Origin: an uncultured Alphaproteobacteria bacterium
Lineage (GTDB): Bacteria > Pseudomonadota > Alphaproteobacteria > HIMB59 > GCA-002718135
NCBI GenBank assembly: GCA_902577425.1
Contig: CACGZD010000001.1
Span: forward strand, 510,414-574,413
Reading direction: 5' to 3'
DNA: 64,000 nt
Shown here: in pieces, positions 4,230-62,376 of the stretch
How positions within the stretch are numbered: the first letter of the stretch is position 1
How the letters are laid out: each line of letters starts with the position of its first letter
Notes under the pieces: generated by a model
Seen by the model: the letters and a program-made list of their open reading frames with translations, nothing else
Told to the model about the DNA's origin: nothing
The model's database searches: none
Program-made: the position numbers and the translations under genes

Positions 4230-6380
<2,151 letters not shown>

Positions 6381-6448
6381 CCAGTATTATTATTTTAAAT
6401 TTACTTTTTATTAAGCTCATTTATCTTTAGAATGCATTTAAATTTATT

Positions 6449-7384: not shown

Positions 7385-7392
7385 AGATTATT

Positions 7393-8121: not shown

Positions 8122-8130
8122 TACGTATCC

Positions 8131-8573: not shown

Positions 8574-8590
8574 AAATAAAGACTAGTATT

Positions 8591-44728: not shown

Positions 44729-45568
44729 CTATAACTGGAAATAAACAATACCAATTCCCATGACTATTAATATGGAAGGAATAATTCTCTTTTTTGCCTC
44801 TTTTTCAGCTAAAAATAATAATCCAATAATTGCTGCAATAACTATACTTATTTCTCTAATACTAGACACATAGGCAATTTCAATAAACTGCATTCCCCAC
44901 ACAACCAACGCATAACTACTCGTTGCAAAAAATCCAGCCGCAATTCCAGATTTAATGGTATATGAACTCCTATCTCTAAGACCCTTTTTTGAAAAAATTG
45001 AAATGATTAAAAGAGGTACTCCGTTTAAGGCAAATAACCAGAATATATAAGTAAAACCATTTTCAGCTTTTCTTACTCCAATACCATCCACTAAAGTATA
45101 TAGTGTGATTAATACAGCTGTAGATAATGCTAAAAAAAAAGCGGCTCTATTAAATTCTATTTTTGAAGAAAATGAAATCAAAAATAAACCTAGGCAAACT
45201 ATTATTATGCCTCCAAAACCGTATGTATTTATAGAGGTTGATAAAAATACAATACTAAAGAGAGCGATTAAAAGTGAAGAGCCTCCTCTAGCTATAGGAT
45301 AAACAAATGATAAATCTCCATATTTATAAGAATAAATAACATTCAATCTATAGAGTACGTGAATGATTACTGTTGCTAATAAAAAAAACCAAATTTCTAA
45401 AGTAGGAAAAGGAACATAAAAAGTGAGAGGAATAAAAATTATAATTTCCATCAAAGAAGTTATGCCCATTAAAGATAAAGGATTAGAACTTGATTTTATA
45501 ATAGCACTCCATGTTGCATGAAATAGAGCTGATAAAAGAATTAATAAGAAAATAAAATTTATTGTCAA
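44729..45568 (-). CDS. DMT transporter, phosphonate-utilisation-associated type (TIGR03340-like)
   Basis: SALFHATW, GDLSFVYPIARG, YTLVDG, SIREISIV; divergent from phnA. Confidence 0.75.
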   Translation of the reverse strand: MTINFIFLLILLSALFHATWSAIIKSSSNPLSLMGITSLMEIIIFIPLTFYVPFPTLEIWFFLLATVIIHVLYRLNVIYSYKYGDLSFVYPIARGGSSLLIALFSIVFLSTSINTYGFGGIIIVCLGLFLISFSSKIEFNRAAFFLALSTAVLITLYTLVDGIGVRKAENGFTYIFWLFALNGVPLLIISIFSKKGLRDRSSYTIKSGIAAGFFATSSYALVVWGMQFIEIAYVSSIREISIVIAAIIGLLFLAEKEAKKRIIPSILIVMGIGIVYFQL

Positions 45569-45644: not shown

Positions 45645-46889
45645 ATGACCAATACTCTTTCTATTAATAATAGAGAATATCCTAGTATTCTAAATCAAAC
45701 ATCCATTGTTATATGTCTTGATGGTAGTCAAAAAGAATACATAGATGAAGCATCAAAGTTAAATCTTACACCAAACCTTGATGATATTATACAAAAGGGA
45801 GAGTATCTTATGGCCCATAGTGCCATTCCAAGTTTTACAAATCCAAATAATATTTCAATTGTTACAGGTCAGCCAAGTTCTGTACACGGTATTTGTGGAA
45901 ATTTTTTTTATACACCTGAAACTGGCAAAGAAGTGATGATGAATGATCCTCAGTATCTAAGGGCTCCAACAATATTTGAAAAATTTTATCAAGCAGGTGC
46001 AAAAATTGCACTTGTAACAGCTAAAGACAAATTACGCACACTTCTTGGTAATGGTTTAAAATTTAATGAAGGTAGAACAATATGTTTCTCTGCTGAAAAA
46101 TCAGATCAAGCAACAAAAATAGAAAACGGAATTGAAAATGTTAATGACTGGTTGGGCATGCCAGTTCCAGAAGTTTACTCTCAGGATTTATCAGAGTTTG
46201 TAATGGCAGCTGGCGTTAAACTCATGGAAGAATTTAAACCAGATATTATGTATCTATCAACAACTGATTATATTCAGCACAAGTATGCCCCAGGACACGA
46301 AGTTGCTAACAAATTTTATTCCATGTTTGATAAATATATTGGTCAACTAGATGAATTAGGTGCAACAATTATTATTACATCCGATCATGGCATGAAGCCA
46401 AAATCAAAAGAAGATGGCTCTCCCAATGCAATTTTTTTACAAGACCATCTTGATGATAAATTTAATAAAAATAAAACAAAAGTCATTCTTCCTATTACAG
46501 ATCCCTATGTTGTACACCATGGCGCTTTAGGTTCTTTCGCTACAATTTATTTAGAAGATAAAAATGATTTAGAAGATGTAATGATGGAGATAAAAAAGAT
46601 CAAAGATATTGAAGTAGTTTTAAATAAGGAAGAAGGCTGTTCCCAATACAATCTGCCTAAAGATAGAATGGGAGATATTATTTGTATGTCCTCTGAATTT
46701 ATGACTATTGGTTCTTCTAAAGATAAGCACAATCTAAGTGGTTTAAATGAACCACTTCGCTCACATGGTGGGTTGCATGAGAGGGAAGTACCCTTTATTG
46801 TAAATAAAAAAATGCCTCAAATTGATTCTAATAAACAATTATATAACTATGATGCATTTTATTATGCAATCTCTGGAACAAATTCATGA
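45645..46889 (+). CDS. phnA: Phosphonoacetate hydrolase
   Basis: [42 protein letters not shown]. Confidence 0.95.
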
Positions 46890-48325
46890 ACAATAAAATC
46901 ATAAATGAATCAATGCGTATAGCTGGTAAAAAGGTTAATGCAGAAAAAGTTATAGAAGTTGAATATCCTTTCACTGGAGATGTTATAGGAACTGTTCCTG
47001 CAGGAAATGCAGAACATGCTAAACAAGCTTTAGATATTGCTGCAAACTTTACACCAAAATTAACAAGATATGAGAGGCAAAAAATTTTACAAAATACTGC
47101 GGAATTATTAGTTAAAAGAAAAGATGAAATTTCAGATATGATCACAATGGAACTTGGTTTATCAAAGCAAGATTCGTTATATGAAGTAGGAAGAGCATTT
47201 GATGTTTTTTCTCTTACCGCTCAATTATGTATTTATGATGATGGTGAGATATTTTCGTGTGATTTAACGCCACATGGAAAGGCTAGAAAAATTTTTACTA
47301 TACGAGAACCTCTAACAGCTATTTCAGCTATTACACCTTTTAATCACCCTTTAAATATGGTGGCACATAAAATTGCTCCTTCTATAGCAACTAATAACTG
47401 CACTGTTTGCAAACAAACTGAGTTAACGCCAATGACAGCTATGTTGTTAGCGGATATATTATATGAGGCAGGCTTACCACCTGAGATGTTCTCAGTAGTT
47501 ACTGGCTGGCCTGATGATATTGGATTAGAAATGATTCAAAATCCTAATATTGATTTAATAACATTTACTGGAAGTGTAGGTGTTGGAAAATATATTGCAG
47601 AACAAGCTGGATACAAAAGAACTGTTTTAGAATTAGGAGGTAATGACCCTCTAATTGTTTTAAATGATTTAGATGAAGACGATCTAAAGAAAGCAGTTGA
47701 ACTTGCTGTTACTGGTGCTACAAAAAATTCTGGCCAACGTTGCACAGCTGTTAAAAGAATATTATGTCAAAACAAAATAGCTGATCGATTTGTTGAAATG
47801 GCCTTAGAGAGAGCAAAGAAAATTAAATTTGGTGACCCAATGGATTTAAAAACGGATTTAGGTACGGTTGTAAATGCCGAAGCAGCACAATTATTTGATA
47901 AACGTGTCTCTATGGCAGCTGAAGATGGTGCTAAAATATTATATCATCCTGGACTTGAAGGCGCTTTGTTGCCTCCTATTGTAATTGATCATGTTAATCC
48001 AAAAAGTGAACTAGTAATGGAAGAAACATTTGGTCCTGTCATTCCTATCATTAGAGTTCCTGATGAAGATGATGAAGTTATAACAATTTCTAATTCCACT
48101 GCTTTTGGATTATCTTCTGGAGTTTGTACGAATAATTTTATGAGGGCAAAAAAATATATTCAAAATTTAAATGTTGGTACAGTTAACATATGGGAAGTTC
48201 CTGGGTACAGAATAGAGATGTCTCCTTTTGGGGGAATTAAAGACTCAGGCCTGGGTTATAAAGAGGGAGTTATCGAAGCGATGAAAAGTTTTACTAATGT
48301 AAAAACATTTTCACTTCCTTGGTAG
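46886..48325 (+). CDS. phnY: Phosphonoacetaldehyde dehydrogenase (NAD+)
   Basis: ALDH: [33 protein letters not shown]; overlaps phnA. Confidence 0.92.
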
Positions 48326-48401: not shown

Positions 48402-49214
48402 TTAAAATTTTTTAGTTGTCTCAAACCAATTGATATTATCTTTTAAAAAGTCTTCAGTATGGACTACCAGTGAGTTTTTATTAATTAATATTACATTATA
48501 ATTTGGATCAGTATTGGCCGTTCCCAATCTATAGTTTTTTGAAAAATTGGGCACTAATGGAGACCAAGTACTTCTCGGCGCACTAAAAGGTATATTTAAA
48601 TAATTTCCTGATACCGTAATATGTTGATGACCAAAAAAAATATGTTGAATAATTTTTTTAAATTTAATTAATATATCTTTAAATTCATCTCCTTGTTGTA
48701 AACCAATATAATCACTATTGGGTTCTCCTAGGGGTAAGGGATTATGATGCATAAAAAGATAAACTTGTTTATTATTATCTGAAGCATTTTCCAGAGTATT
48801 TATAATCCAACTTTGTCTGTTGTTGCAAAAATGTCCTTGATGGGTATTTGATAAATTTGTATCTAAAAAAATAAAACGTTTATCTTCAATGTCTTCAAAA
48901 TATTGAACAAAACCATTGTCATCTAAAGGTATTTTTGTAAATATTTGTTTGAATTGTTCTCTATCATCATGATTGCCCATAAGTAATTTTGGAAACAAAT
49001 GTTTTGGTATTTTGGAATTTAATAATATTTCATTTAATTTATTATAAGATTCACTATCCCCGTCATGCGTTAAATCTCCTGATATAACAAATAGCTTTGA
49101 GTCTAAATGATTGTTGCAAATATGTTGAAGTGCTAGTGAAAATCTCTCTTTAGCATCATGTTCAAAAAGTTTATCTGGAGAAATATGAGGATCTGATAAA
49201 TGGATTATTTTCAT
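48402..49214 (-). CDS. Calcineurin-like metallophosphoesterase (CpdA/GpdQ-like)
   Basis: SDPH, SGDLTHDG, GNHD, MHHNP, FGHQH. Confidence 0.88.
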   Translation of the reverse strand: MKIIHLSDPHISPDKLFEHDAKERFSLALQHICNNHLDSKLFVISGDLTHDGDSESYNKLNEILLNSKIPKHLFPKLLMGNHDDREQFKQIFTKIPLDDNGFVQYFEDIEDKRFIFLDTNLSNTHQGHFCNNRQSWIINTLENASDNNKQVYLFMHHNPLPLGEPNSDYIGLQQGDEFKDILIKFKKIIQHIFFGHQHITVSGNYLNIPFSAPRSTWSPLVPNFSKNYRLGTANTDPNYNVILINKNSLVVHTEDFLKDNINWFETTKKF

Positions 49215-49241: not shown

Positions 49242-49871
49242 TTAAAGTTTTGTTTTAAAAAAAAGATACTTATTAAATTCTTTATTTAAATCGATGCTAA
49301 CACGGGCATGTACTTTCCCTTGTTTGCCCATAAAAGAACTTTTCTTTTGAACAGGGAAAACACCCTCATGCCAAATATTGGGATGAATATATAAACCTTT
49401 TGATCCATCAAAATAAAATGCCTTAAAATCTTCTGCTTGAATATCATCGCCAGGTAACGCAAGAGGTGAAATAAATGGACCTCTTTCAGAGGGAAAAAAT
49501 AACTGTCCTCCATCTGGGTGGTAATTAACATGCCATATATAAATCTCTTCTGGCTCACTATATTCTGTATTATTTTCAATATTTTCTGGAGGGGCAGAAT
49601 ATCCTAAAATATATTTTCCATCTATTTCATACTCACTATTATGTTGCACAGCATTATTTTGCCCATAAAGAGTTGATCCTTCCCACCAAGTATCAAACGA
49701 ACCTTCGGTATAGCCCGCTTCATTACCTGTTCCTTCATCAATTTCTCGCCAACCCTGCTTTGGCCAAGTTACAATTTCAACATCACTGTTTTCAAATGAG
49801 TCTATTAAATAACCATATCCTTTAAGAGTTTCATTTGTAGCTTTGACTAAGGGGATTTCAATGGCCTGCAT
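49242..49871 (-). CDS. Ureidoglycolate-lyase (AllA)-like cupin
   Basis: LKGYG start motif, NYHPDGGQLFFP (cf. ERHPLGSQAF), GLYIHPNIWH. Confidence 0.7.
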   Translation of the reverse strand: MQAIEIPLVKATNETLKGYGYLIDSFENSDVEIVTWPKQGWREIDEGTGNEAGYTEGSFDTWWEGSTLYGQNNAVQHNSEYEIDGKYILGYSAPPENIENNTEYSEPEEIYIWHVNYHPDGGQLFFPSERGPFISPLALPGDDIQAEDFKAFYFDGSKGLYIHPNIWHEGVFPVQKKSSFMGKQGKVHARVSIDLNKEFNKYLFFKTKL

Positions 49872-49882: not shown

Positions 49883-50983
49883 TTAATTAATTTTAATTTG
49901 TAATTCATTAACAACTTCTTTTATGGCCTTAATGGTATCATGCATATCATTGTCATCTAAATTTCCAATACATCCAATACGAAAAGTATCAGCAACAGTA
50001 AGCTTCCCTGGATAAATCAAAAAATCTTTATTACTCAAAGCATCATAAAATTCTTCAAAATTAAAATTTGAATTTTGAGGCTGCATAAACGTTATAATTA
50101 TTGGCGCTTGTAATTCATTTGACAGTAATTGTTTAAAACCTATTTCTTTCATACCATCACAAATTATTTTGCAATTATTTGAATACCTTTTATGTCTTCC
50201 TTCAACCCCCCCTTCTTTTGAATGTTCATTTATAGCTTGTTGAAAGGCAGCTAAAACATGTGTGGGAGGAGTAAAACGCCACTGTTTATTTTTTTTCATT
50301 GCTTGCCATTGATCATATAGATCTAAACTTAAAGAATGTGCATTTCCTTTTGCTTTTTCGATAATATTATTTTTAACTAAAATAAAGCCTACTCCAGGAA
50401 CTCCTTCTAAACATTTATTGGAAGAAGCAGCAACAGCATCAAATACAATTGTTTTACTACTAAGAGGAAGAGCGCCAAAAGCACTCATAGCATCAATAAA
50501 TAATGATAAATTTTTTTTTGCTACTAAGTCAGATATTTTTTGAATAGGATTTAATATTCCTGAGGTTGTTTCACAGTAAACAGCAAACACATGAGTTAAA
50601 TCAGTATTAGAATCTATAATGTTTTCAATTTCATCTAAATCATGTTGTTCATGTTCCGCCACTTCATAAGCAATACATTCTCTACCAACATAGTCACACA
50701 TTTTTTTCATACGGTGACCATATGCTCCATTAATTAATATTAATATTTTTGCATCTTTAGATGTGAGAGAGCCAACCATTGATTCTACTGCAAATGTTCC
50801 GCTACCTTGCATTGGAACACATTGGTAATTATTTTCACCATCAATAAGTTTTACAAGAGATTCACGAATAGAATGGTTCAGATCAATAAATTTTTGATCT
50901 CGCGAACCCCAATCATGAAGCATGGCTTCTTTGGTTGTCATGGAGGTAGTAAGTGGTCCAGGTGTAAGAAGTTTTTTATCCAT
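49883..50983 (-). CDS. phnW: 2-aminoethylphosphonate:pyruvate transaminase
   Basis: LLTPGPLTTS, DWGSRD, MQGSGTFAVE, CETTSG, SSNKCLEG, WRFTPP. Confidence 0.96.
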   Translation of the reverse strand: MDKKLLTPGPLTTSMTTKEAMLHDWGSRDQKFIDLNHSIRESLVKLIDGENNYQCVPMQGSGTFAVESMVGSLTSKDAKILILINGAYGHRMKKMCDYVGRECIAYEVAEHEQHDLDEIENIIDSNTDLTHVFAVYCETTSGILNPIQKISDLVAKKNLSLFIDAMSAFGALPLSSKTIVFDAVAASSNKCLEGVPGVGFILVKNNIIEKAKGNAHSLSLDLYDQWQAMKKNKQWRFTPPTHVLAAFQQAINEHSKEGGVEGRHKRYSNNCKIICDGMKEIGFKQLLSNELQAPIIITFMQPQNSNFNFEEFYDALSNKDFLIYPGKLTVADTFRIGCIGNLDDNDMHDTIKAIKEVVNELQIKIN

Positions 50984-51023: not shown

Positions 51024-51081
51024 CTAGCAATTAAATAAAAAATTGATTTGCAATTTTTTCTTAAAGTTGTATTTTTTCTGT

Positions 51082-51642
51082 GTGGAAAATATTGTTAATC
51101 ATCTATTAAATCTTTTGGCGACCAAAGGAGCTGATCTACAGTATGGAAATGAAGATGTAACACAATTAGAACATGCCTTACAATGTGCTGAATTAGCAGA
51201 AAATAATAATTTACCTAATCCTACTATAGCGGCCGCTTTGCTACATGATATAGGGCACTTATTATATGATGGTGATGACCCCATTCATGAAGGCAAAGAT
51301 GGTCATCACGAAAATATAGGAGCAAATTATTTAGCTGAATATTTTGGAGAGGAGGTTATTCGCCCAATACAAGCACATGTTGATTCTAAGAGATATTTAT
51401 CTGCTGTAGAAGAAGGATATTATGACCTTCTATCTGAAGCATCAAAACTATCTTTAGAAGCTCAAGGTGGTCCTTTTACAAAGGAAGAAGCCAAAATTTT
51501 TGTTGAAAAACCTTTCATGAAAGAAGCTATAGAATTAAGACGTTTTGATGATCAAGCCAAAATCTTAAATAAAAAAACGCCTTCTCTTGATTATTTTAAA
51601 CATTATGTTGAAGAGGCTCATAATTTATTTTTAAATAATTAA
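51082..51642 (+). CDS. phnZ: PhnZ-type HD-domain diiron oxygenase
   Basis: YGNE..QLEHALQCA, LLHDIGH, HENIG, HVDSKRYL, LSEASKLSLEAQGG, RRFDDQAK; likely GTG start at 51082. Confidence 0.88.
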   Translation: MENIVNHLLNLLATKGADLQYGNEDVTQLEHALQCAELAENNNLPNPTIAAALLHDIGHLLYDGDDPIHEGKDGHHENIGANYLAEYFGEEVIRPIQAHVDSKRYLSAVEEGYYDLLSEASKLSLEAQGGPFTKEEAKIFVEKPFMKEAIELRRFDDQAKILNKKTPSLDYFKHYVEEAHNLFLNN

Positions 51643-51645
51643 TTT

Positions 51646-52170
51646 ATGAATTTTGACAATTATGATTTTTTAGATACCTCTAAATTTGCTGGAAAAATTA
51701 TTCTTACATCTTTCCCTGGTTTAATCGAAAATACGCGTTTTGATATTTCATTTTTTTTAAAAGAGTTAAAAATATTTAAGGATAATAATTGTTCTTCAAT
51801 TACATCTTTTGTAGAAGATAGTGAGTTTGAAAAAATCTGTGATAAAAAAAACTTCGTTGAACAAATCTATCATAATAAGTTAAAGTGGTACCATCTACCT
51901 ATTAAAGATTTAGGTGCTCCTAATACTGAATTTAAATTTAAGTGGGAAACAACAAAAGTTTTATTAAAAAATGAATTGATCGAAGGCAAAAATATAGTTT
52001 TGCATTGTCGTGGAGGAAAAGGACGGGCAGGAACAGTTGCCGCATTATTATTAATTGATTTTGGAGTTAAAAAAGAAGAGGCTATTCAGCTCGTACGATC
52101 AAGAAGAAAAGGTGCTATTGAAACAAAAGAACAAGAAGAATTTATTTTTTCTTATAGACCTGTAGCTTAG
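51646..52170 (+). CDS. CX5R cysteine phosphatase (CDKN3/dual-specificity-like)
   Basis: HLPIKD acid loop, HCRGGKGRAG P-loop, GAIETKEQ. Confidence 0.88.
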   Translation: MNFDNYDFLDTSKFAGKIILTSFPGLIENTRFDISFFLKELKIFKDNNCSSITSFVEDSEFEKICDKKNFVEQIYHNKLKWYHLPIKDLGAPNTEFKFKWETTKVLLKNELIEGKNIVLHCRGGKGRAGTVAALLLIDFGVKKEEAIQLVRSRRKGAIETKEQEEFIFSYRPVA

Positions 52171-53219
52171 TAATTTACGGTTAAATTAAAAATATTTTGT
52201 AACACAAATAAAATTATAAAAGATATTAATGCTGCAAGGATTGGCAACAAAACCCAACCTATAGAAATTTTCCTTGCAATTGTCCATTGAACCTCTTTTC
52301 CACCTTTTAATAATCCTATACCAATTACACCACCCACGACTGCTTGAGAGCTTGATACTGGAACAAGAGGAATTGAGGGTAAATTAATTGACTGAAGAAA
52401 ATTACTAATACCTTGAGAAGCAAATAAAAATAAAACGATAGAATGAGCTAGTACAACGATAAAAGCGGCTACAGGGGACATTTTTAATAAATCATTTCCA
52501 ACAGTAAACATTACTTTTTTAGAATAAGTAAAAACACCAACTGCTATAGCAATACCACCTAATAGAAAAAGTTGCTCTTTGGACGAGAAATTAAAATCAT
52601 TTAAAATATTAATATCAGTAAAAGGTGAGATAGGGACAAAAACCCCCATTACATTAGCAATGTTATTAGCTCCTAGACTGTACGCTCCAAAAGCACCAGC
52701 TAATAAAAGAGCCGTTCTCGTATATGCGTCTAATCGCAGAATATGTAATTTTGCTTTTTGTAGAAAATTTTTTGTTATTACAAAAAAAAGCATTGAAAGC
52801 AAACCAGCAATAATAGGACATAAAACCCAAGTACCTAAAATTGTAATTAAAACTTGAATATTGGTTGAAGATCCAGTGTACAAGTTCCATCCTATAATAG
52901 CGCCAACAATTGCCTGCGTTGTTGAAACAGGAAGACCAGATTTTGTCATTATATATACTGAGAGCCCAGCAGCAATACATGCAGCAAAAGCTCCAGGCAA
53001 TGCATTGATTGATCCGAGCTTACCCAGTGTTTCGGTTGTTCCAGATCCACTAATAATAGCTCCTAGAATAACAAAGATACTACAAACAATTGCAGCAGTT
53101 TTAAATTGTACCATGCGCGTGCCAACCGCAGTTCCAAAAACATTAGCTGCATCATTGGCTCCTAAAGACCATCCTAGAAATAATCCTCCTAAGAGAAAAA
53201 TAATAATTGTTAATTCCAT
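52167..53219 (-). CDS. PiT family inorganic phosphate transporter
   Basis: GANDAANVFG and GANNIAN signatures, PVSTTQ, PVSSSQ. Confidence 0.92.
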   Translation of the reverse strand: MELTIIIFLLGGLFLGWSLGANDAANVFGTAVGTRMVQFKTAAIVCSIFVILGAIISGSGTTETLGKLGSINALPGAFAACIAAGLSVYIMTKSGLPVSTTQAIVGAIIGWNLYTGSSTNIQVLITILGTWVLCPIIAGLLSMLFFVITKNFLQKAKLHILRLDAYTRTALLLAGAFGAYSLGANNIANVMGVFVPISPFTDINILNDFNFSSKEQLFLLGGIAIAVGVFTYSKKVMFTVGNDLLKMSPVAAFIVVLAHSIVLFLFASQGISNFLQSINLPSIPLVPVSSSQAVVGGVIGIGLLKGGKEVQWTIARKISIGWVLLPILAALISFIILFVLQNIFNLTVNY

Positions 53220-53226
53220 AAATTAA

Positions 53227-53889
53227 TTAAACTGATCTTTTGATAGCGTAGATCTGAATTTCATCTGAAATATCTTCTGCTTGATCACAAATACGATCAA
53301 TTTTTTCAACAAAATAACGTAGATGCATTTTTTGATCCAAAGAAAGATTAGAATCAAAAATTTTTCTCGCCAAAGAACTAAATTTTATATCAGATTCTTT
53401 TTCATAAAATGTTACTTTGTGTGCATTGTCTCTAACAGATTTAATATCTCTAAAAAACGATCTTACTGTTAAACATAGTGCCTCTACACAATTTACTACA
53501 GTCTCTGTTAAATCAATTAAATCGTCATGAAACTCTTTTGGAAAATTTGGTTTTTGAATAGAGAAATGATAACAATTACCTTGATACATTCCAATAACTT
53601 CATCAAGATGTTCAAGAACTCTTAATACATCACTTCGAGCATCGGGAATTAATGTTTCTTCATATAAGGTGTGCTCCACTTCTTTGGTTATTTTATCAGC
53701 CTTACTTTCCATTAATTTAACTTGTTCGACCATTTCATCAAATTTGCCATTGGCAGAACTAGATAAATATGTTGGAATAATAGACTTAAATACCAAGCCT
53801 ACTTCAGAGAGAATATCAACAAATTCGTCTATTTCTCTCTCTAATTTTTTGGTTTCACCAAATAAAGATGTACTTTTTAATCCAAACAT
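53227..53889 (-). CDS. DUF47 (PhoU-like) PiT accessory protein
   Basis: ESKADKI, YEKESD, DQAEDISD; directly upstream of PiT. Confidence 0.9.
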   Translation of the reverse strand: MFGLKSTSLFGETKKLEREIDEFVDILSEVGLVFKSIIPTYLSSSANGKFDEMVEQVKLMESKADKITKEVEHTLYEETLIPDARSDVLRVLEHLDEVIGMYQGNCYHFSIQKPNFPKEFHDDLIDLTETVVNCVEALCLTVRSFFRDIKSVRDNAHKVTFYEKESDIKFSSLARKIFDSNLSLDQKMHLRYFVEKIDRICDQAEDISDEIQIYAIKRSV

Positions 53890-54673: not shown

Positions 54674-54736
54674 TCTTTATTAATTTTTTAATAAGAGAGG
54701 TTTTTTTAGGAAATAATAAATTAATTATTCATCATT

Positions 54737-55526: not shown

Positions 55527-56024
55527 ATGAAAAAATTATGGTTCAAAAAAAAATCTTCTCTTCATGGATCGGGACTATTCGCTCTAAGTAATGTTAAAAA
55601 GGGTGAACAAGTAATTGAATATATAGGTGATAAAGTAACTAAAAAAGAAGGTGATAAAAGAGCCGATAAACAAATAAAAAAAGCTGAAAAAAATAAAAAA
55701 AATGGAATGGTCTATGTTTTTGAACTCAATAAAAAATATGACATTGATGGGGGGGTAGCTCGAAATTATGCACGTTTTATCAATCACTCCTGTGATCCAA
55801 ATTGTGAAGTAGAAATAACCAATAATCATATTTGGATATCATCGATTAAAAAAATTAAAAAAGGAGCAGAATTAACATATAATTACGGCTATCCCTTTGA
55901 TAGTGATTTTGAAGATCATATTTGTAAATGTGGATCTAAAAAATGTGTAGGGTATATTTTAAGTGACGATGATTGGCCCAAGCTAAAAAAATATGAAAAA
56001 AAACATAAAAAGGGCTCTAGATAA
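55527..56024 (+). CDS. SET-domain protein-lysine methyltransferase with post-SET
   Basis: HGSGLFA, EYIG, RFINHSCDPNC, ELTYNY, CKCGSKKC. Confidence 0.93.
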   Translation: MKKLWFKKKSSLHGSGLFALSNVKKGEQVIEYIGDKVTKKEGDKRADKQIKKAEKNKKNGMVYVFELNKKYDIDGGVARNYARFINHSCDPNCEVEITNNHIWISSIKKIKKGAELTYNYGYPFDSDFEDHICKCGSKKCVGYILSDDDWPKLKKYEKKHKKGSR

Positions 56025-57030
56025 AGTACCCCTTATAACTATAGCTATCAGTGTTGATAGAAATATAACTTATTATAATAACTTTGCTAAGCAAAAATTT
56101 CTTTTTATTGAAGAAGGAAGAGATATTAATGCTGTTGTTAGATCAATGGAATTAAACAGTTTTATTGATAGGGCTTTTAGAGAAAAAAAAGATTTTAAAG
56201 TAGAGTTCCAACCTTCTAATTATGAAGATTGGTATTTTATCGCCGACCTTGTTTTTTTTTCTGAAAGCGAAGGTTCAGATAAAGAGCTCATTGTTATTCT
56301 AACTGATCAAACAATGCTTTATAACTATGAAAAAATGCGAACTGATTTTGTTGCTAATGTCAGTCATGAATTGCGCACACCTCTCTCATCAATAGTTGGT
56401 TATATTGAAACTATTAAAAATGATATTAATCTAGATAAAATAACCACAAACAAATTTTTAGATATTATGGAGGATCAAGCTTGGCGTATGACAAGATTAG
56501 TCGAAGATTTATTGTTGTTAAGCAAATATGAGGCAGGAGATAAGCCTCTAGAATTAAAAGAAACAGAGATTGTAAACATTCTTCAAAAAGCAATAGATAA
56601 TTTAAATAAAAAAATTGAAGATAAAAAATTAAAAGTAAATTTAAATGATCATTTTACTAAAAAATTGATTTCTCTTAACAGTGATTCTATCATTCAAGTA
56701 TTTATAAATATTATAGATAACGCAATTAAGTATTCAGATGAGGGAAGTGAGATAAACATCGTTCTAAAACAGGCTATCCTAGATGATAATACTTATGTTC
56801 AAGTTCAAATTAAAGATCAAGGCGAGGGAATCTCCAATGAACATCTTAATCGCTTAACAGAAAGATTTTATAGAATTGATAAAAACCGATCTAGGGACTT
56901 AGGTGGTACAGGACTAGGTTTATCTATCGTAAAACATATTATAAACCGCCATAATGGCAAGTTTACAATTGAGAGTGAGATTAATCAGGGAAGTACTTTT
57001 ACCGTTTATTTACCTTTTGAATTTAATTAA
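55993..57030 (+). CDS. phoR: Phosphate regulon sensor kinase lacking N-terminal TM helices
   Basis: PAS-like start, DFVANVSHELRTPL H-box, NAIKYS, DQGEG, RFYR, GGTGLGL. Confidence 0.9.
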   Translation: MKKNIKRALDKVPLITIAISVDRNITYYNNFAKQKFLFIEEGRDINAVVRSMELNSFIDRAFREKKDFKVEFQPSNYEDWYFIADLVFFSESEGSDKELIVILTDQTMLYNYEKMRTDFVANVSHELRTPLSSIVGYIETIKNDINLDKITTNKFLDIMEDQAWRMTRLVEDLLLLSKYEAGDKPLELKETEIVNILQKAIDNLNKKIEDKKLKVNLNDHFTKKLISLNSDSIIQVFINIIDNAIKYSDEGSEINIVLKQAILDDNTYVQVQIKDQGEGISNEHLNRLTERFYRIDKNRSRDLGGTGLGLSIVKHIINRHNGKFTIESEINQGSTFTVYLPFEFN

Positions 57031-57042
57031 TAAAAAACAAAT

Positions 57043-57060
57043 CTTTAATATTTCTGTAAT
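57043..57060 (+). promoter_or_regulatory. Pho box upstream of pstS
   Basis: CTTTAAT-ATTT-CTGTAAT. Confidence 0.65.
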
Positions 57061-57105
57061 ATTATAGATCTATTTCTACCTTAAATTTATTTAAAGAGGT
57101 TTAAA

Positions 57106-58101
57106 ATGAAAAAATTTGTTCTTAGTTTAATTATTGTAACTTTTGCAATTACAAGCTCAGTTTCTGCAAGAGATTATATATCTATCGTTGGATCTTCTAC
57201 TGTTTATCCATTTGCAACACTAGTTGCTGAAAAAATGGCTTCTGAAGGAATGAAAGCACCAGTTATTGAAAGCACAGGTTCTGGGGGAGGACATAAATTA
57301 TTTTGTGCTGGTGTTGGAGTTGAACATCCTGATATTACAAATTCATCAAGAGCACAAAAAGATAAAGAGTTTAAATTATGCCAAGATGGCGGTGTAATGG
57401 ATATCGTAGAAGTACGTGTTGGTAATGACGGTATTGCATTTGCTTACTCTTCTGATTATGAGTGGAAGTACACAAATGGTGCAGCTATGAAAGGTGGAAT
57501 AGATCTTTCAAAGGAAGAAATTTGGCAAGCTATGGCCAGAGACAATAAAGATGCACCAAGCACTTGGTTTGAAATTGATAAGCGATTACCAAAAGTAGAA
57601 ATTTCTATTATGGCACCCCCTCCTTCTTCTGGAACAAGAGATGCGTTTGATTCACTCGTAATGAAAAAAGGTTGTGTCAAAGATATGCTGGTTGCTGATG
57701 GCGACTGTAAAGCTTACCGTGAAGATGGCCATGTTATTGAGGGTGGTGAAAATGATGAACTTTATGTTGAACACATTACAAAAGAGCAAGGTGCATTCGG
57801 TATTTTCGGATATAGTTTCTTAGCAAATAATGAAGATAAAATTTCTGCTTCTAAAATTAATGGGGTAGAAATCTCTCAAGAAGGTATTCAAGATTATTCA
57901 TATCCTATTGCAAGACCTTTATTCTTTTATATCAAAAAAGCGCATGTAGGTGTAATCCCTGGGTTAATGGATTATGTTAATGAGTTTGTAAGTGAGGAAG
58001 CAACAGAAGGTTATTTATTGGATGCGGGGTTGGTCGAGTTAAGTCCAGCTGATAGAAGCAAAGTTCTTGATGACATTGCTAATTTGACAAATTACAAATA
58101 A
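57106..58101 (+). CDS. pstS: Phosphate ABC substrate-binding protein
   Basis: Signal peptide, GSSTVYPF, ESTGSGGG, PPSSGTRDAF, YPIARPLFFY. Confidence 0.95.
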   Translation: MKKFVLSLIIVTFAITSSVSARDYISIVGSSTVYPFATLVAEKMASEGMKAPVIESTGSGGGHKLFCAGVGVEHPDITNSSRAQKDKEFKLCQDGGVMDIVEVRVGNDGIAFAYSSDYEWKYTNGAAMKGGIDLSKEEIWQAMARDNKDAPSTWFEIDKRLPKVEISIMAPPPSSGTRDAFDSLVMKKGCVKDMLVADGDCKAYREDGHVIEGGENDELYVEHITKEQGAFGIFGYSFLANNEDKISASKINGVEISQEGIQDYSYPIARPLFFYIKKAHVGVIPGLMDYVNEFVSEEATEGYLLDAGLVELSPADRSKVLDDIANLTNYK

Positions 58102-58117
58102 CCTTAATCTAATTGAA

Positions 58118-58147
58118 TAAAAAGAGGGGATTTCCCCCTCTTTTTTT
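58118..58147 (+). terminator. Intrinsic terminator after pstS
   Basis: A-run, GAGGGG-ATTTC-CCCCTC, T7. Confidence 0.85.
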
Positions 58148-58150
58148 ATT

Positions 58151-58179
58151 GACTCATATCATTGTAATATAACTGTAAC
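58151..58179 (+). promoter_or_regulatory. Pho box(es) upstream of pstC
   Basis: GACTCAT-ATCA-TTGTAAT-ATAA-CTGTAAC, 11-bp periodicity. Confidence 0.8.
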
Positions 58180-58208
58180 AAAAGTTTAGTATTCTTTCTA
58201 AATATCTA

Positions 58209-59582
58209 ATGTTTTATTGGTCTCTAATTATTATAGTTCTTGGTATTTATTCCGCATATATTTTTGGAAAATCACGAATTAAATCAAACGCTAAGCAGTT
58301 AGATATCAAAACAGTTTCTCTTCCTACATATTATGCGCAATACATGATGGTCTGGTGTTTGCTACCTGCTCTTATTGTTTATTTTGGGTGGATCATTTTT
58401 GAAAATCAAATAATTCAAAATCTTGTCCTTGCAAACTTTGATTTTGAATTAAACCCCACTCTTAATCCTGGGCTATTAATTGCAGAGATAAAAAATGTTG
58501 CTTCAAACATTTCTTTTGCTGAGGGAAAAGCAATAGAAATATTAAATGCTGCGGAACATTACTCTTCACTTAAATTTACAAGTACAGTTGCTTTTTATTT
58601 AAGTGTTTTAATTTTTATGATTTTAGGAGTTATGATTGCCTCTAGAAAATTGCAACCCACTTTTCGTGCACAGAAATCAATTGAAAATTATATAAAATAT
58701 TTTCTATTTTTTTGTTCTACAGTAGCAGTTTTAACAACTGTTGGAATTGTCTTCTCATTATTGTTTGAAAGTTTACGTTTTTTTTCTGAAGTATCTATTT
58801 TTGAATTCTTATTTGGAACTAAGTGGTATCCTTATATTCCTATACGAGAAGGTCAGTCAGGATCCCAAGGATCATTTGGAGCTATTCCAATATTTGCTGG
58901 AACATTTTTGATTATGATTGTTGCAATGAGTGTTGCTACACCTATTGGATTATTTACAGCAATTTATTTATCTGAATATGCTTCACCAAAAATAAGAAGT
59001 ATAGTGAAGCCTCTTTTAGAAATTTTAGCTGGCGTCCCTACTATAGTTTATGGTTTCTTTGCTTTTGTTACTGTTGCCCCATTTGTCAAAACATTCGGCC
59101 AGTCCTTGGGAATAGATGCTTCGCCTACAAGTGCTCTTGCCGCAGGCTTGGTGATGGGCATTATGATTATACCTTTTATATCTTCGTTATCAGATGATGT
59201 AATAAATTCTGTCCCTCAAAGTTTGAGAGAAGGGTCTTTAGGTGTTGGCGCTAATAAAGCAGAAACAATTAAAAAGGTCATTCTACCAGCTGCCCTTCCT
59301 GGTATTGTGGGTGCCTTTTTACTAGGTGTTTCAAGGGCTATTGGAGAAACTATGATTGTCGTTGTGGCTGCAGGTACTGCGCCCAATTTAACTGCAAATC
59401 CTTTTGAAAATGTTACCACTGTTACAGTACAAATTGTTATTGCTTTAATTGGTGATCAAGAATTTGATGACCCACGAACCTTATCAGCTTTTGCATTAGG
59501 ATTAGTTTTATTTGTTATTACATTAATTCTTAATATTTTTGCTTTAAGAATTGTTAAAAAATATAGAGAACGATATGAGTAA
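58209..59582 (+). CDS. pstC: Phosphate ABC permease
   Basis: EILAGVPTIVYG, SRAIGETM, N-terminal alpha-type extension. Confidence 0.95.
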   Translation: MFYWSLIIIVLGIYSAYIFGKSRIKSNAKQLDIKTVSLPTYYAQYMMVWCLLPALIVYFGWIIFENQIIQNLVLANFDFELNPTLNPGLLIAEIKNVASNISFAEGKAIEILNAAEHYSSLKFTSTVAFYLSVLIFMILGVMIASRKLQPTFRAQKSIENYIKYFLFFCSTVAVLTTVGIVFSLLFESLRFFSEVSIFEFLFGTKWYPYIPIREGQSGSQGSFGAIPIFAGTFLIMIVAMSVATPIGLFTAIYLSEYASPKIRSIVKPLLEILAGVPTIVYGFFAFVTVAPFVKTFGQSLGIDASPTSALAAGLVMGIMIIPFISSLSDDVINSVPQSLREGSLGVGANKAETIKKVILPAALPGIVGAFLLGVSRAIGETMIVVVAAGTAPNLTANPFENVTTVTVQIVIALIGDQEFDDPRTLSAFALGLVLFVITLILNIFALRIVKKYRERYE

Positions 59583-60855
59583 TCAATATTCACACGAAAA
59601 AATTATTCAATTAAGAAAAAAAAGAAGTGCAGCTGATCGCCGATTCAAAACTTATGGCTTAATTGCTACCTTAATGGGAATGGCGATTTTATTTTTTTTA
59701 TTATTTACTATTTTCTCTAAAGGATATTCTTCCTTTCAAAAATCTGTAATTGAATTAGAGGTGTCGTATGATCAAGAAACTTTAAAAATTACTTCTGACT
59801 CAACCTATGAAGAACAAGTAAAAGCAAAATTTTTTAGAGTGAAAAAAAATGCCATTGCCAAAGCACTACCTGACTTAAGTAAAAAAGATATTAAGTTGAT
59901 AAAAAAGATGTTTTCAATAAATGTTGATAAAGAAATTAAGGAGTATTTTTTAAATAATCCAAATATTTTAAATACTACTCAGAAGATTTTTGTTACTGCT
60001 CATAGTGATGTTGATCAACTGTTAAAAGGAAATGCTAGACGTAATATTGAAGAGAAAAAAAGAAAATTAAATGATAGGCAATTAGAATTTTTTGATGAAT
60101 TTGTTTCAAGCGGCAGATTAAAAACTAAATTTAATAATTTCTTTTTTAAGAATGCTGATTCAAGACATCCTGAATTGGCTGGTATAGCTGGATCTTTTGT
60201 AGGATCATTATTTACTTTGATGACTGTTTTTTTATTAGCGTTTCCAATTGGTATTGGCGCATCAATATATTTAGAAGAATTTGCACCAAAAAATAAGTTT
60301 ACAGAGTTAATTGAAGTTAATATTGCCAACTTAGCAGCTGTTCCTTCTATAGTATTTGGTTTGTTAGGACTGGGTATTTTGTTAAATGTTTTTGGATTTC
60401 CAAGAAGTACACCTTTGGTTGGAGGAACTGTTTTAGCACTAATGACGCTACCCACGATAATTATAGCTTGTCGTGCCTCTCTTAAAGCCGTCCCACCATC
60501 TATAAAAGAAGGTGCTTTAGCGATGGGGGCATCAAAAATGCAAGCGGTATTTCATCATCAGGTACCATTAGCATTACCAGGCACTTTAACTGGTACTATT
60601 ATTGGTTTAGCGCAAGCTTTAGGGGAAACAGCTCCTTTGATTATGATAGGAATGATTGCTTTTATCCCAAATATTCCAACCGGTTTCACAGAGCCATCTG
60701 CAGCTTTACCTGTACAAATCTATCTTTGGGTAGAAAGTTCAGAGAGAGGGTTTCAAGAAAAAACTGCTGCAGCAATAATGATGATATTAATATTTTTATT
60801 TTTAATGAATGCTTTAGCAGTATTCTTAAGAAGTAAGTTTGAGAGAAAATGGTAA
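59575..60855 (+). CDS. pstA: Phosphate ABC permease
   Basis: [18 protein letters not shown]; start at MSNQ overlapping pstC stop. Confidence 0.95.
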
Positions 60856-60856
60856 T

Positions 60857-62335: not shown

Positions 62336-62353
62336 CTGTAATCAAATTGTAAT
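62336..62353 (+). promoter_or_regulatory. Pho box upstream of phoB
   Basis: CTGTAAT-CAAA-TTGTAAT immediately after the phoU stop. Confidence 0.8.
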
Positions 62354-62376
62354 AAAAATTTATTAAAAAATAAACA

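What the first reader, a model, noticed from the sequence alone, without database searches (positions are those of the whole stretch)
49242..49871. Ureidoglycolate-lyase-like cupin behind phnW: candidate new C-P cleaving or hydroxylating enzyme
Seen: 11 nt downstream of phnW; AllA motif ERHPxGSQ altered to NYHPDGGQ, second His (IWH) kept; no allantoin genes in the window. Known: AllA cleaves HOOC-CH(OH)-NH-CONH2 to glyoxylate + urea. Inference A: the analogue hydroxyphosphonoacetate, which PhnW+PhnY could form from 1-hydroxy-2-AEP, might be split to glyoxylate + phosphite. Inference B: as a metal cupin it could be the missing alpha-hydroxylase upstream of PhnZ. Either would be new.
Basis: inference. 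Interest (0 to 1): 0.78.

Follow-up and report, generated by a model that had tools for sequence, protein, structure and literature searches.

The report
AllA-like cupin tied to phosphonate breakdown
A small metal-binding enzyme labelled "ureidoglycolate lyase" in databases is really a separate, uncharacterised family that keeps turning up inside gene clusters for breaking down natural phosphonates, in ocean SAR11 bacteria and in other phyla, so it is probably an undescribed helper enzyme of that pathway.

Summary
Window 49242-49871 (minus strand) encodes a 209-aa protein 11 nt downstream of phnW. It carries NYHPDGGQ and IWH and hits Pfam PF04115.

It is not a canonical AllA. It scores 21-32 bits against NCBIfam AllA models whose cut-offs are 160-315 bits. 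Only its C-terminal ~75 residues align to AllA. One AllA acidic position (Glu) is Asn here.

It belongs to a large distinct family: more than 5000 clusters at 90% identity and about 600 species. The family has its own invariant residues: R42, N116, Y117, D120, K/R183, Q184, H188, E198.

The only recurrent gene context is 2-aminoethylphosphonate-type catabolism:
- phnW-X-phosphoesterase in all SAR11 loci;
- tmpA-tmpB-X with a 4-nt overlap in Rhodobacterales and Hoeflea;
- X beside phnS2T2U2;
- X with a PhnY*-like gene, a PhnZ-like gene, NPP phosphodiesterase and ceramidase in Bacteroidota.

Elsewhere the gene stands alone. Homologues also occur in bivalves and a brachiopod.

The fold is AllA-like, not that of a 2OG oxygenase. 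X coexists with the TmpA and PhyH hydroxylases. phnWAY+phnZ clusters without phnY* are already known. Phosphite release fits none of the contexts.

Best reading: an uncharacterised accessory metalloenzyme with lyase-type chemistry that acts on C1-hydroxylated aminoalkylphosphonates or their derivatives. The reaction itself remains unknown.

The parts
49242..49871 (-). X: 209-aa AllA-fold cupin. Type I member of a distinct PF04115 subfamily (motifs WHVNYHPDGGQ, IWHE, KVHARVS).
   Evidence: ORF; PF04115 at 39 bits over residues 112-181 only; AllA equivalog models at 21-32 bits, far below their cut-offs; AF2 pLDDT 94; Foldseek best hits are AllA structures, E~1e-8; conserved-residue table.
49883..50983 (-). 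phnW, 2-aminoethylphosphonate:pyruvate transaminase. Its stop codon lies 11 nt before the X start.
   Evidence: NF010006 522 bits (cut-off 296) and TIGR02326 474 bits. Adjacency to X holds in 30/30 Pelagibacterales loci with adequate flanks.
48402..49214 (-). Metallophosphoesterase (SpdA/CpdA-like class III phosphodiesterase), 27 nt after X. Probably the third gene of a phnW-X-MPE operon.
   Evidence: PF00149 52 bits; NF050112 181 bits, below its cut-off. Present in the SAR11 loci, though sometimes displaced by inserted cassettes.
51043..51642 (+). PhnZ-like HD-domain oxygenase, transcribed divergently from phnW across a ~60-nt intergenic region. The true start may lie downstream of the TTG that was called.
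   Evidence: TIGR03276 200 bits (cut-off 214.6), HMP dioxygenase model 154 bits, TmpB model 150 bits.
51646..52170 (+). Dual-specificity/PTP-type phosphatase directly after the PhnZ-like gene.
   Evidence: PF22784 56 bits; conserved beside the HD gene in the SAR11 loci.
46886..48325 (+). phnY, phosphonoacetaldehyde dehydrogenase.
   Evidence: TIGR03250 785 bits, cut-off 636.
45645..46889 (+). phnA, phosphonoacetate hydrolase.
   Evidence: TIGR02335 492 bits, cut-off 408.
44729..45568 (-). EamA-family membrane protein of the phosphonate-associated 'phn_DUF6' type.
   Evidence: PF00892; TIGR03340 151 bits, below its cut-off.
52167..53889 (-). PHO4-family phosphate transporter (52167-53219) and a PhoU_div-family protein (53227-53889).
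   Evidence: Pfam families of the syntenic genes in L001 and L004, which are 88-90% identical to the window proteins.
55993..63060 (+). Pho regulon core: phoR, pstS, pstC, pstA, pstB, phoU, phoB. It shows that the phosphonate cluster sits in a phosphorus-acquisition island.
   Evidence: NCBIfam hits.

Best explanation
[quoted passage not shown] It belongs to a separate, uncharacterised subfamily whose job lies in catabolism of 2-aminoethylphosphonate-type phosphonates (AEP, trimethyl-AEP and phosphonolipid head groups), not in allantoin breakdown.

Shown:
- It is a distinct family with its own invariant residues.
- Phosphonate catabolism is its only recurrent gene context, and the link is tightest to the PhnZ/TmpB HD-oxygenase step and to PhnW.

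Inferred:
- It keeps the His...Gln...His part of the AllA metal site, with Asn116 and Asp120 replacing or adding to AllA's Glu.
- It adds a basic cluster (R42, K/R183, H188) suited to a phosphonate group.
- It performs AllA-like, redox-neutral chemistry at a carbinol carbon: the hydroxyl and an anionic group chelate the metal, a carbonyl forms, and a group leaves.
- The substrate common to all contexts would be a C1-hydroxylated aminoalkylphosphonate ((R)-HAEP or hydroxy-TMAEP) or a derivative of one. An example is 1-hydroxy-phosphonoacetaldehyde, the dead-end aldehyde that PhnW makes from (R)-HAEP.
- Its role would be that of an ancillary 'funnel or rescue' enzyme like PbfA-D, not a core step.

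The exact reaction is not established.
For: Not a canonical AllA:
- NCBIfam AllA models score 21-32 bits against cut-offs of 160-315.
- Only ~75 C-terminal residues align to AllA.
- AllA's Glu at position -2 from the His is Asn116 throughout the family.

Fold:
- AF2 model pLDDT 94.
- Foldseek top hits are 2bdr, 1xsq, 1xsr and 1yqc (E 7e-9 to 5e-8, TM 0.62-0.69 on the target), then the Fe-binding DUF4867 structure 9gyy.
- AllA is Ni-dependent (PMC3793230). DUF4867 has a 2His-2Glu metal site (PMC11968277).

Family size: 5073 clusters at 90% identity, 369 clusters at 50% identity with E<1e-10, about 600 species carrying NYHPDGGQ.

Context:
- phnW-X in 30/30 Pelagibacterales loci with at least 3 kb on each side, and phnA-phnY-phnW-X on one strand in L040.
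- LysR | tmpA-tmpB-X in seven Rhodobacterales/Hoeflea genomes. TmpA scores 590 bits and TmpB 352 bits, both above cut-off. tmpB and X overlap by 4 nt in L050, L072, L073 and L078.
- X beside phnS2-phnT2-phnU2 in L045 and L066.
- phnW/phnY near X in Arenicellales L043.
- Bacteroidota-type loci: TonB receptor-NPP phosphodiesterase-X-HAD-PhyH-DUF5690-HD (L112), and HD | X-NPP-ceramidase (L109).
- Linked fractions with adequate flanks: 11/37 other genomes and 5/21 metagenome contigs. For scale, phnY*Z clusters were found in only 7 of 19,425 complete genomes (PMC8154272).
- In 24 unlinked loci, 89 neighbours hit 129 Pfam families, none more than twice, and none of the 25 families listed is an allantoin or urease family.

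Other points:
- Metazoan ureidoglycolate lyase is a malate-synthase-like protein (PMC10120013), yet bivalves and Lingula carry X homologues.
- PhnW converts (R)-HAEP slowly into 1-hydroxy-phosphonoacetaldehyde, which PhnX cannot use (PMC8154272).
Against: - No biochemical data exist, so the chemistry is inferred from fold and neighbours only.
- About two thirds of non-SAR11 loci show no phosphonate gene within 8 kb. The two largest type II clades (soil, and marine 'MSGY') show none at all. The family may therefore hold several functions, or X may act on a non-phosphonate substrate that merely co-occurs.
- In Sneathiella, X sits after an allantoate-amidohydrolase-like M20 enzyme and near a C-N hydrolase. 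That points to ureido/amide chemistry.
- TmpA+TmpB and PhnY*+PhnZ work in vitro as two-enzyme pathways, and the review PMC10574752 describes tmpAB as a two-gene operon. No step is obviously missing.
- No single reaction that I can write explains the PhnW, TmpAB and PhnY*Z contexts equally well.
Confidence: 0.5

Rival explanations
1. X is simply a divergent ureidoglycolate lyase, or a lyase for another ureido/amido carbinol. It would yield glyoxylate plus urea or an amine for nitrogen or carbon supply, and its position next to phosphonate genes would carry no mechanistic meaning.
For: - PF04115 is hit above gathering.
- The fold and the His/Gln/His residues are shared with AllA.
- RefSeq names the family 'ureidoglycolate lyase'.
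- In Sneathiella, X follows an allantoate-amidohydrolase-like M20 enzyme (690 bits against NF006769) and lies near a CN_hydrolase.
- Most loci outside SAR11 have no phosphonate neighbour.
- Some SAR11 lineages catabolise purines and allantoin (PMC11698098).
Against: - X fails every AllA equivalog model by a wide margin.
- AllA's Glu is Asn, and eight family-invariant polar residues are absent from AllA.
- No allantoin or urease family is among the 25 Pfam families listed for neighbours in unlinked loci, and none in the window by the limited test made.
- Four independent arrangements with phosphonate genes, including 4-nt overlap with tmpB, are hard to put down to chance.
- Bivalves carry X although the metazoan UGL is a different protein.
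Confidence: 0.18
2. One reading: X is an oxygen-dependent hydroxylase that makes the 1-hydroxy substrate of the PhnZ/TmpB-type HD oxygenase from AEP-type phosphonates. It would replace PhnY*/TmpA where these are absent.
For: - HD + X with no TauD/PhyH-type hydroxylase within 8 kb occurs in SAR11 (none in the whole 64-kb window), in Amylibacter L059 (LysR | tmpB-X) and in Chitinophagales L109.
- X has an H118-x-D120...H168 pattern that recalls a 2-His-1-carboxylate site.
- Cupin Fe enzymes that act on hydroxyalkylphosphonates without 2OG exist (HEPD, MPnS, HppE; own knowledge). Psf4/HppE appears only as a weak generic cupin hit (rank 30).
Against: - The fold matches the Ni-dependent lyase AllA. 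No 2OG oxygenase is among the significant Foldseek hits, and there is no TauD or PhyH Pfam hit.
- X coexists in one operon with TmpA (seven genomes) and with PhyH (L111, L112, L132), where a second hydroxylase would be redundant.
- D120 is Cys in some members.
- No reductant-supplying partner is apparent.
- phnWAY+phnZ without phnY* is a known arrangement, explained by uptake of (R)-HAEP (PMC8154272).
- X also persists alone with its LysR regulator in Amylibacter L064.
Confidence: 0.1
3. One reading: X is a new C-P lyase that expels phosphite from an alpha-hydroxyphosphonate. Candidate substrates are hydroxyphosphonoacetate (to glyoxylate + phosphite) or HAEP/hydroxy-TMAEP (to the aldehyde + phosphite), by a retro-Abramov reaction analogous to AllA's C-N cleavage.
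For: - The chemistry is formally parallel to AllA's: hydroxyl and leaving group on the same carbon, with an adjacent anionic group to chelate the metal (mechanistic parallel drawn in PMC11968277; otherwise inference).
- X lies next to enzymes that make or use 1-hydroxyphosphonates.
- A basic cluster absent from AllA could bind phosphonate.
Against: - The tmpA-tmpB-X and Bacteroidota loci lack phnW, phnY and phnA within 8 kb, so hydroxyphosphonoacetate cannot be the common substrate.
- X would compete with the co-transcribed HD oxygenase for the same substrate.
- Phosphite would be a loss of phosphorus in a Pho-regulon island unless it is oxidised, and no phosphite dehydrogenase or transporter was seen among the annotated neighbours.
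- No precedent for the reaction is known to me.
Confidence: 0.07
4. X cleaves or rearranges the side product of PhnW acting on (R)-HAEP. It would convert 1-hydroxy-phosphonoacetaldehyde to glycolaldehyde + phosphate, or convert alpha-hydroxyphosphonates to phosphate esters that the neighbouring phosphoesterases then hydrolyse.
For: - PhnW makes this aldehyde slowly. PhnX and ADH cannot use it, and it decays non-enzymatically to phosphate + glycolaldehyde (PMC8154272).
- X directly follows phnW in all SAR11 loci and in L040.
- A phosphoesterase of varying family often follows X: MPE in SAR11, HAD in L112, NPP in L109.
Against: - It does not explain tmpA-tmpB-X, because hydroxy-TMAEP cannot be transaminated.
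- The adjacent phosphoesterases are equally well explained as enzymes that free AEP from lipid or glycan esters.
- It is pure inference.
Confidence: 0.12

Closest known systems
AllA / DAL3 ureidoglycolate lyase (EC 4.3.2.3, Pfam PF04115; PDB 1XSQ, 1XSR, 1YQC, 2BDR)
   Same: - Same fold: Foldseek E~1e-8, TM 0.62-0.69 on the target.
- The C-terminal ~75 residues are alignable (hhalign probability 97%).
- The His (HP.G.Q), Gln and second His (WH) are conserved.
- It is presumably metal-dependent like Ni-AllA (PMC3793230).
   Different: - About 50 residues longer, and the N-terminal half is not alignable by sequence.
- AllA's Glu at -2 from the His is Asn116; Leu is Asp120.
- Eight invariant polar residues (R42, N116, Y117, D120, K/R183, Q184, H188, E198) are absent from AllA.
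- It fails all AllA equivalog models.
- The gene context is phosphonate catabolism, not allantoin catabolism.
DUF4867 (SftX/SqvB; PDB 9GYY)
   Same: - A neighbouring AllA-like cupin family.
- Also a recurrent accessory gene, of unknown role, in pathways for a C-heteroatom organo-anion (sulfoquinovose).
- A metal site at the barrel centre, and no missing step in its pathway (PMC11968277).
   Different: - Only a weak structural match (E 3e-4, 10% identity).
- DUF4867 has a 2His-2Glu Fe site.
- Its context is sulfosugar and ketose metabolism.
PbfA, PbfB, PbfC, PbfD ('phosphonate breakdown factors')
   Same: Recurrent, non-essential genes embedded in AEP catabolic clusters that widen the substrate range ((R)-HAEP, N-methyl-AEP) (PMC8154272, PMC10590968). 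This is the functional category I propose for X.
   Different: - Unrelated folds and cofactors (PLP, FAD).
- Their reactions are known.
- X is not mentioned in those surveys.
PhnY*/PhnZ and TmpA/TmpB oxidative C-P cleavage pathways
   Same: X is co-operonic with TmpA-TmpB and clustered with PhyH/PhnY*-like and PhnZ-like genes.
   Different: X is neither a TauD/PhyH-type 2OG oxygenase nor an HD-domain protein. The published pathways are complete with two enzymes.
Cupin phosphonate enzymes HEPD, MPnS and HppE
   Same: A cupin barrel with a His/His/(Glu or Gln) metal site, acting on hydroxyalkylphosphonates (own knowledge).
   Different: - No specific similarity: Psf4/HppE is only a generic cupin hit at rank 30 (E 3e-3, TM ~0.3).
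- They are biosynthetic oxygenases.

Membership tests
AllA ureidoglycolate lyase (EC 4.3.2.3) | Match to Pfam PF04115 above the gathering threshold | tested here: met
   39.2 bits against 23, but only residues 112-181 match profile positions 70-139 of 162.
AllA ureidoglycolate lyase (EC 4.3.2.3) | Score above the curated cut-off of an AllA equivalog or subfamily model (NCBIfam) | tested here: not met
   Eight AllA models score 20.7-31.9 bits against cut-offs of 160-315.
AllA ureidoglycolate lyase (EC 4.3.2.3) | AllA-type cupin fold | tested here: met
   AF2 pLDDT 94. The top five Foldseek PDB hits are all AllA structures, E 7e-9 to 5e-8.
AllA ureidoglycolate lyase (EC 4.3.2.3) | Conserved ELERHP.G.Q ... 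WHH residues, the presumed Ni site | tested here: inconclusive
   His118, Gln123 and His168 are kept. The Glu at -2 is Asn116 in every member, and Leu is replaced by Asp120. Which residues bind Ni in AllA was not verified here.
AllA ureidoglycolate lyase (EC 4.3.2.3) | Clustering with allantoin or purine catabolic genes | tested here: not met
   None in the window by the limited tblastn test. None among the 25 Pfam families listed for neighbours in 24 unlinked loci. The only ureide-like neighbour is an M20 amidohydrolase in Sneathiella.
AllA ureidoglycolate lyase (EC 4.3.2.3) | Ni-dependent release of urea + glyoxylate from (S)-ureidoglycolate | not testable with these tools
   Needs an enzyme assay.
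Fe(II)/2OG hydroxylases of phosphonates (PhnY*, TmpA) | TauD/PhyH-type double-stranded beta-helix with HxD/E...H and a 2OG-binding Arg/Lys | tested here: not met
   No TauD or PhyH Pfam hit. No 2OG oxygenase among the significant structural matches; only JMJD5 at rank 25 with E 2e-3. An H-x-D...H pattern exists, but shifted relative to the cupin HxH position, and D120 is Cys in some members.
Recurrent accessory enzymes of AEP catabolic clusters (PbfA-D category; a functional class, not a homology family) | Recurrent clustering with phnW, phnA/Y, phnZ, tmpAB or AEP transporters in unrelated lineages | tested here: met
   30/30 Pelagibacterales, 11/37 other genomes and 5/21 metagenome contigs with adequate flanks; four distinct arrangements.
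Recurrent accessory enzymes of AEP catabolic clusters (PbfA-D category; a functional class, not a homology family) | Demonstrated turnover of a phosphonate that feeds a core pathway | not testable with these tools
   Needs enzymology.

The most novel reading that the evidence does not exclude
X catalyses a so far unknown, redox-neutral transformation of the C-P bond of alpha-hydroxyphosphonates. Three candidates: retro-Abramov release of phosphite; phosphonate-to-phosphate rearrangement giving phosphoethanolamine or phosphocholine for the adjacent phosphoesterases; or metal-assisted dephosphonylation of 1-hydroxy-phosphonoacetaldehyde. Any of these would be a fourth mechanistic class of biological C-P cleavage, present in SAR11, roseobacters, Bacteroidota and even bivalves.
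Probability: 0.15. Interest if true: 0.9.

Novelty: new variant of a known kind. Interest (0 to 1): 0.62.

Why it matters
Phosphonates are a major pool of dissolved organic phosphorus in the sea, and SAR11 is the most abundant marine heterotroph.

- Every SAR11 locus examined places this uncharacterised gene directly after phnW.
- The published tmpA-tmpB 'two-gene' operon of roseobacters in fact carries it as a translationally coupled third gene.
- Bacteroidota loci that look built for sphingophosphonolipid breakdown carry it too.
- Public databases call it 'ureidoglycolate lyase', which would mislead metagenomic surveys of both purine and phosphonate cycling.

If it proves to be an enzyme acting on hydroxylated aminophosphonates, it would add a component to AEP catabolism. 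It could also explain how PhnZ-containing clusters without a hydroxylase work.

Its presence in phosphonolipid-rich bivalves hints at an animal route for phosphonate turnover, for which no enzyme is known to me.

Tried and rejected
- Locus search with the diverse 39-sequence alignment A2 failed for lack of a conserved stretch. It was repeated with a narrower alignment.
- Promoter and terminator scans around the cluster gave no more sites than shuffled sequence. Operon structure therefore rests on spacing only.
- Domain fusions: nine of ten long homologues carry no extra domain. One (P0240) has a C-terminal glyoxalase/VOC domain, a single case that I did not use.
- Literature: no paper links PF04115 or ureidoglycolate lyase to phosphonate catabolism, tmpAB or phnZ. 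DUF5690 is not described in any relevant paper.
- The class III aminotransferase next to X in L168 was tested as a possible PbfA. It looks HemL/GntE-like instead.
- No hydroxylase (TmpA or PhyH type) was found anywhere in the window.
- My first greedy ORF calling in high-GC loci picked antisense ORFs. I redid it with a codon-position GC filter.
Full report
**Observation**

Window 49242-49871 holds a 209-aa ORF on the minus strand. Its start codon lies 11 nt after the stop of a gene at 49883-50983 (-). That gene is PhnW beyond doubt (NF010006 522 bits, cut-off 296). A metallophosphoesterase gene (48402-49214, -) follows X after 27 nt.

The remaining neighbours:
- Across a ~60-nt divergent region lie a PhnZ-like HD oxygenase (51043-51642, +; TIGR03276 200 bits, cut-off 214.6) and a PTP/DSP-type phosphatase.
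- Convergent on the other side are phnA and phnY (both above equivalog cut-offs) and an EamA 'phn_DUF6'-like membrane protein.
- The cluster abuts a PHO4 transporter, a PhoU_div gene and the Pho regulon core phoR-pstSCAB-phoU-phoB.

The window has 30.8% G+C. Its closest relatives are SAR11/Pelagibacteraceae single-cell genomes and MAGs.

**What the protein is**

Pfam PF04115 is hit above gathering, but only over residues 112-181. All eight NCBIfam AllA models score 21-32 bits against cut-offs of 160-315.

Sequence and profile searches of the PDB find only the four AllA structures, again over the C-terminal ~75 residues. hhalign against E. coli AllA gives 97% probability over 78 columns.

An AlphaFold model built on 39 diverse homologues is confident (pLDDT 94, pTM 0.90). 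Its best structural matches are the AllA structures (E 7e-9 to 5e-8, TM 0.62-0.69 on the target). Next come the Fe-binding DUF4867 protein 9GYY and generic cupins. No 2OG oxygenase is among the significant hits.

X is therefore an AllA-fold cupin but not a member of the AllA orthologous group.

**The family**

The family is large:
- 5073 clusters at 90% identity.
- 705 clusters at 50% identity, 369 of them with E<1e-10.
- About 600 species genomes carrying the exact NYHPDGGQ motif.

There are two sequence subtypes:
- Type I (WH.NYHPDGGQ, WHE, VHARVS) is found in Proteobacteria and includes the window protein.
- Type II (RE.NYHPDGGQ, WHQ, VHAC) is found in Bacteroidota, soil and marine metagenomes, and animals.

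Residues invariant across both subtypes are W36, R42, G49, F59, N116, Y117, H118, P119, D120, Q123, W167, H168, K/R183, Q184, H188 and E198.

In the alignment, AllA shares only H118, P119, G121, Q123, G159, W167 and H168. It has Glu where X has N116 and Leu where X has D120.

AllA is Ni-dependent (PMC3793230), and DUF4867 binds Fe through 2His-2Glu at equivalent positions (PMC11968277). From this I infer that X still binds a metal through H118, Q123 and H168, with N116 and/or D120. I also infer that R42, K/R183 and H188 could form an anion site.

**Gene context**

This is the strongest evidence.

1. Pelagibacterales.
- Every locus with at least 3 kb on both sides has phnW directly upstream of X (30/30). 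Usually the PhnZ-like/DSP pair, phnA-phnY and the phosphoesterase are present too.
- A more distant Pelagibacteraceae genome has phnA-phnY-phnW-X on one strand (L040).
- Variable cassettes are inserted in this island: a ugp-like ABC transporter with a GDPD phosphodiesterase, and a phosphonate-type Fe alcohol dehydrogenase (TIGR03405, 363 bits).

2. Rhodobacterales and Hoeflea.
- Seven genomes (Amylibacter, Leisingera x2, Ruegeria x2, Thalassobius, Hoeflea) have LysR | tmpA-tmpB-X. TmpA and TmpB pass their equivalog cut-offs (590 bits against 400; 352 bits against 300).
- The X start overlaps the tmpB stop by 4 nt in L050, L072, L073 and L078. For L072 and L078, and for L057, the X start I used is the annotated RefSeq start, confirmed by exact look-up.
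- The published description is of a two-gene operon (PMC10574752).
- Within Amylibacter alone I see three states: tmpA-tmpB-X, tmpB-X, and LysR-X alone (L047, L059, L064).

3. X lies beside the putative AEP ABC transporter phnS2-phnT2-phnU2 in a Deltaproteobacteria MAG and a Rhodospirillales MAG. It lies near phnW/phnY in an Arenicellales genome.

4. A type II clade.
- L112: TonB receptor - secreted NPP phosphodiesterase - X - HAD - PhyH (weakly PhnY*-like) - DUF5690 - PhnZ-like HD.
- L109 (named Chitinophagales through P0546): TonB receptor - secreted NPP - HD | X - NPP - ceramidase. This looks like a sphingophosphonolipid utilisation locus.
- L127: DUF5690 - Rieske oxygenase - DAO-type FAD oxidoreductase - X.

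Outside Pelagibacterales, 11/37 genome loci and 5/21 metagenome loci with adequate flanks are linked in this way. For scale, a survey of 19,425 complete genomes found only 7 phnY*Z and 75 phnWAY clusters (PMC8154272).

In the unlinked loci nothing else recurs. Eighty-nine neighbours from 24 loci hit 129 Pfam families, none more than twice, and none of the 25 families listed is an allantoin or urease family. The one exception is Sneathiella, where an allantoate-amidohydrolase-like M20 enzyme precedes X.

**Distribution in animals**

X homologues at 43-46% identity to the window protein are encoded on chromosome-scale scaffolds of many bivalves and of the brachiopod Lingula. The bivalves include Mizuhopecten (three paralogues on one scaffold), Pinctada, Mytilus, Mya, Mercenaria and Dreissena.

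Metazoan ureidoglycolate lyase has been identified as a malate-synthase-like protein (PMC10120013). These animal copies are therefore unlikely to be the purine-pathway enzyme.

Molluscs are rich in ceramide-aminoethylphosphonate (own knowledge). That fits a phosphonate-related role but proves nothing.

Inference A requires PhnW and PhnY to build hydroxyphosphonoacetate.
- The tmpAB and Bacteroidota loci contain neither enzyme within 8 kb of X.
- (R)-HAEP is a poor PhnW substrate. Its product, 1-hydroxy-phosphonoacetaldehyde, is a dead end that decays to phosphate and glycolaldehyde (PMC8154272).
- Releasing phosphite next to the Pho regulon would waste phosphorus, and I saw no phosphite-oxidation genes among the annotated neighbours.

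Inference B is weakened on three counts.
- The fold is that of a Ni-dependent lyase, not a 2OG oxygenase.
- X coexists with TmpA and PhyH.
- phnWAY+phnZ clusters without phnY* are an established arrangement (24/75), interpreted as use of environmental (R)-HAEP.

B survives as a minority reading, because HD+X without any hydroxylase occurs in three lineages: SAR11, L059 and L109.

**Most likely explanation**

X is an ancillary metalloenzyme of AEP-type phosphonate catabolism. It is comparable in status to PbfA-D but has a different fold.

The compounds common to all its contexts are C1-hydroxylated aminoalkylphosphonates:
- TmpA and PhnY* make them.
- TmpB and PhnZ consume them.
- PhnW mis-processes them.
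- They occur naturally as (R)-HAEP.

AllA-type chemistry operates at a carbinol carbon whose hydroxyl and neighbouring anion chelate the metal. I therefore propose that X acts on such a compound or on a derivative of it. One candidate reaction is clearing or using 1-hydroxy-phosphonoacetaldehyde.

- Shown: the family identity, the departure from AllA, and the recurrent context.
- Inferred: the metal site, the anion site, the substrate class and the lyase-type chemistry.

I put about 0.65 on 'dedicated to phosphonate catabolism, not ureidoglycolate' and about 0.5 on the fuller statement.

The main rival, at about 0.18, is a genuine ureido or amido-carbinol lyase whose phosphonate neighbours are incidental. 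The Sneathiella context and the many solitary loci support it.

**Novelty**

I found no paper connecting this family with phosphonates. Public annotation is 'ureidoglycolate lyase' or 'hypothetical'.

It is best classed as a new variant of a known kind: an AllA-fold enzyme recruited to a different pathway.

Noticed in passing
window 51646-52170 (+); L001 5689-6213, L004 5691-6215: A PTP/dual-specificity-type phosphatase is conserved directly after the PhnZ-like HD oxygenase gene in the SAR11 loci. No role for such a phosphatase in phosphonate catabolism is known to me.
   Followed up: partly
L013 9444-14090; L014 8642-15899; L011 8619-14646; L001 9523-10635: The SAR11 phosphonate island carries variable cassettes that are absent from this window. 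One is a ~368-aa protein with no Pfam or NCBIfam hit, a phosphonate-type Fe alcohol dehydrogenase (TIGR03405, 363 bits), a MetE-like protein and a substrate-binding protein. In L011 there is a ugp-like ABC transporter plus a GDPD phosphodiesterase between X and the phosphoesterase.
   Followed up: partly
L109 1863-11672 (Chitinophagales contig Ga0163154_10000020): The locus combines a TonB-dependent receptor, two NPP-type phosphodiesterases (one with a Por secretion tail), a PhnZ-like HD gene, X, an alkaline ceramidase and a secreted beta-lactamase-family protein. It looks like a utilisation locus for sphingophosphonolipids (ceramide-AEP), with no hydroxylase within 8 kb.
   Followed up: partly
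L127 10-3945: DUF5690 membrane protein - Rieske-type oxygenase alpha subunit - DAO-family FAD oxidoreductase - X on one strand, in a Planctomycetes-like contig. DUF5690 also sits between PhyH and HD in L111, L112 and L132, so it may be a transporter for AEP-type compounds.
   Followed up: no
L047, L059, L064 (three Amylibacter MAGs), around 6200-8600 in each: Three states within one genus: LysR | tmpA-tmpB-X, LysR | tmpB-X, and LysR | X alone. X is the part that is always kept.
   Followed up: partly
proteins P0419, P0463, P0498 (Mizuhopecten yessoensis, one 2.1-Mb scaffold); P0399, P0465, P0466, P0452 and others: X homologues are encoded in the genomes of many bivalves and the brachiopod Lingula, with three paralogues on one scaffold in the scallop. 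One homologue (P0557) comes from a 'viral metagenome' record.
   Followed up: partly
protein P0240 (418 aa): A single homologue carries a C-terminal glyoxalase/VOC domain fused to the X domain. This may be a true fusion or a gene-calling artefact.
   Followed up: no
window 54251-55393: A thioredoxin-type arsenate reductase (ArsC-like, 112 bits, below its cut-off) and a MIP-family channel lie between the phosphonate cluster and the pho regulon. That would fit arsenate co-handling in a phosphate-uptake island.
   Followed up: no
L068 6611-7846, L075, L079, L080, L083 (Sneathiella): In Sneathiella, X is preceded by an allantoate-amidohydrolase-like M20 enzyme. It is flanked by EamA transporters, an NMT1-type ABC system and, in L079, an 808-aa CN_hydrolase. 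This is the only non-phosphonate context that recurs, though in a single genus.
   Followed up: partly
L168 5705-8669: LysR | HemL/GntE-like class III aminotransferase - X with a 23-nt gap. This is another amine-handling partner for X outside recognisable phosphonate genes.
   Followed up: partly
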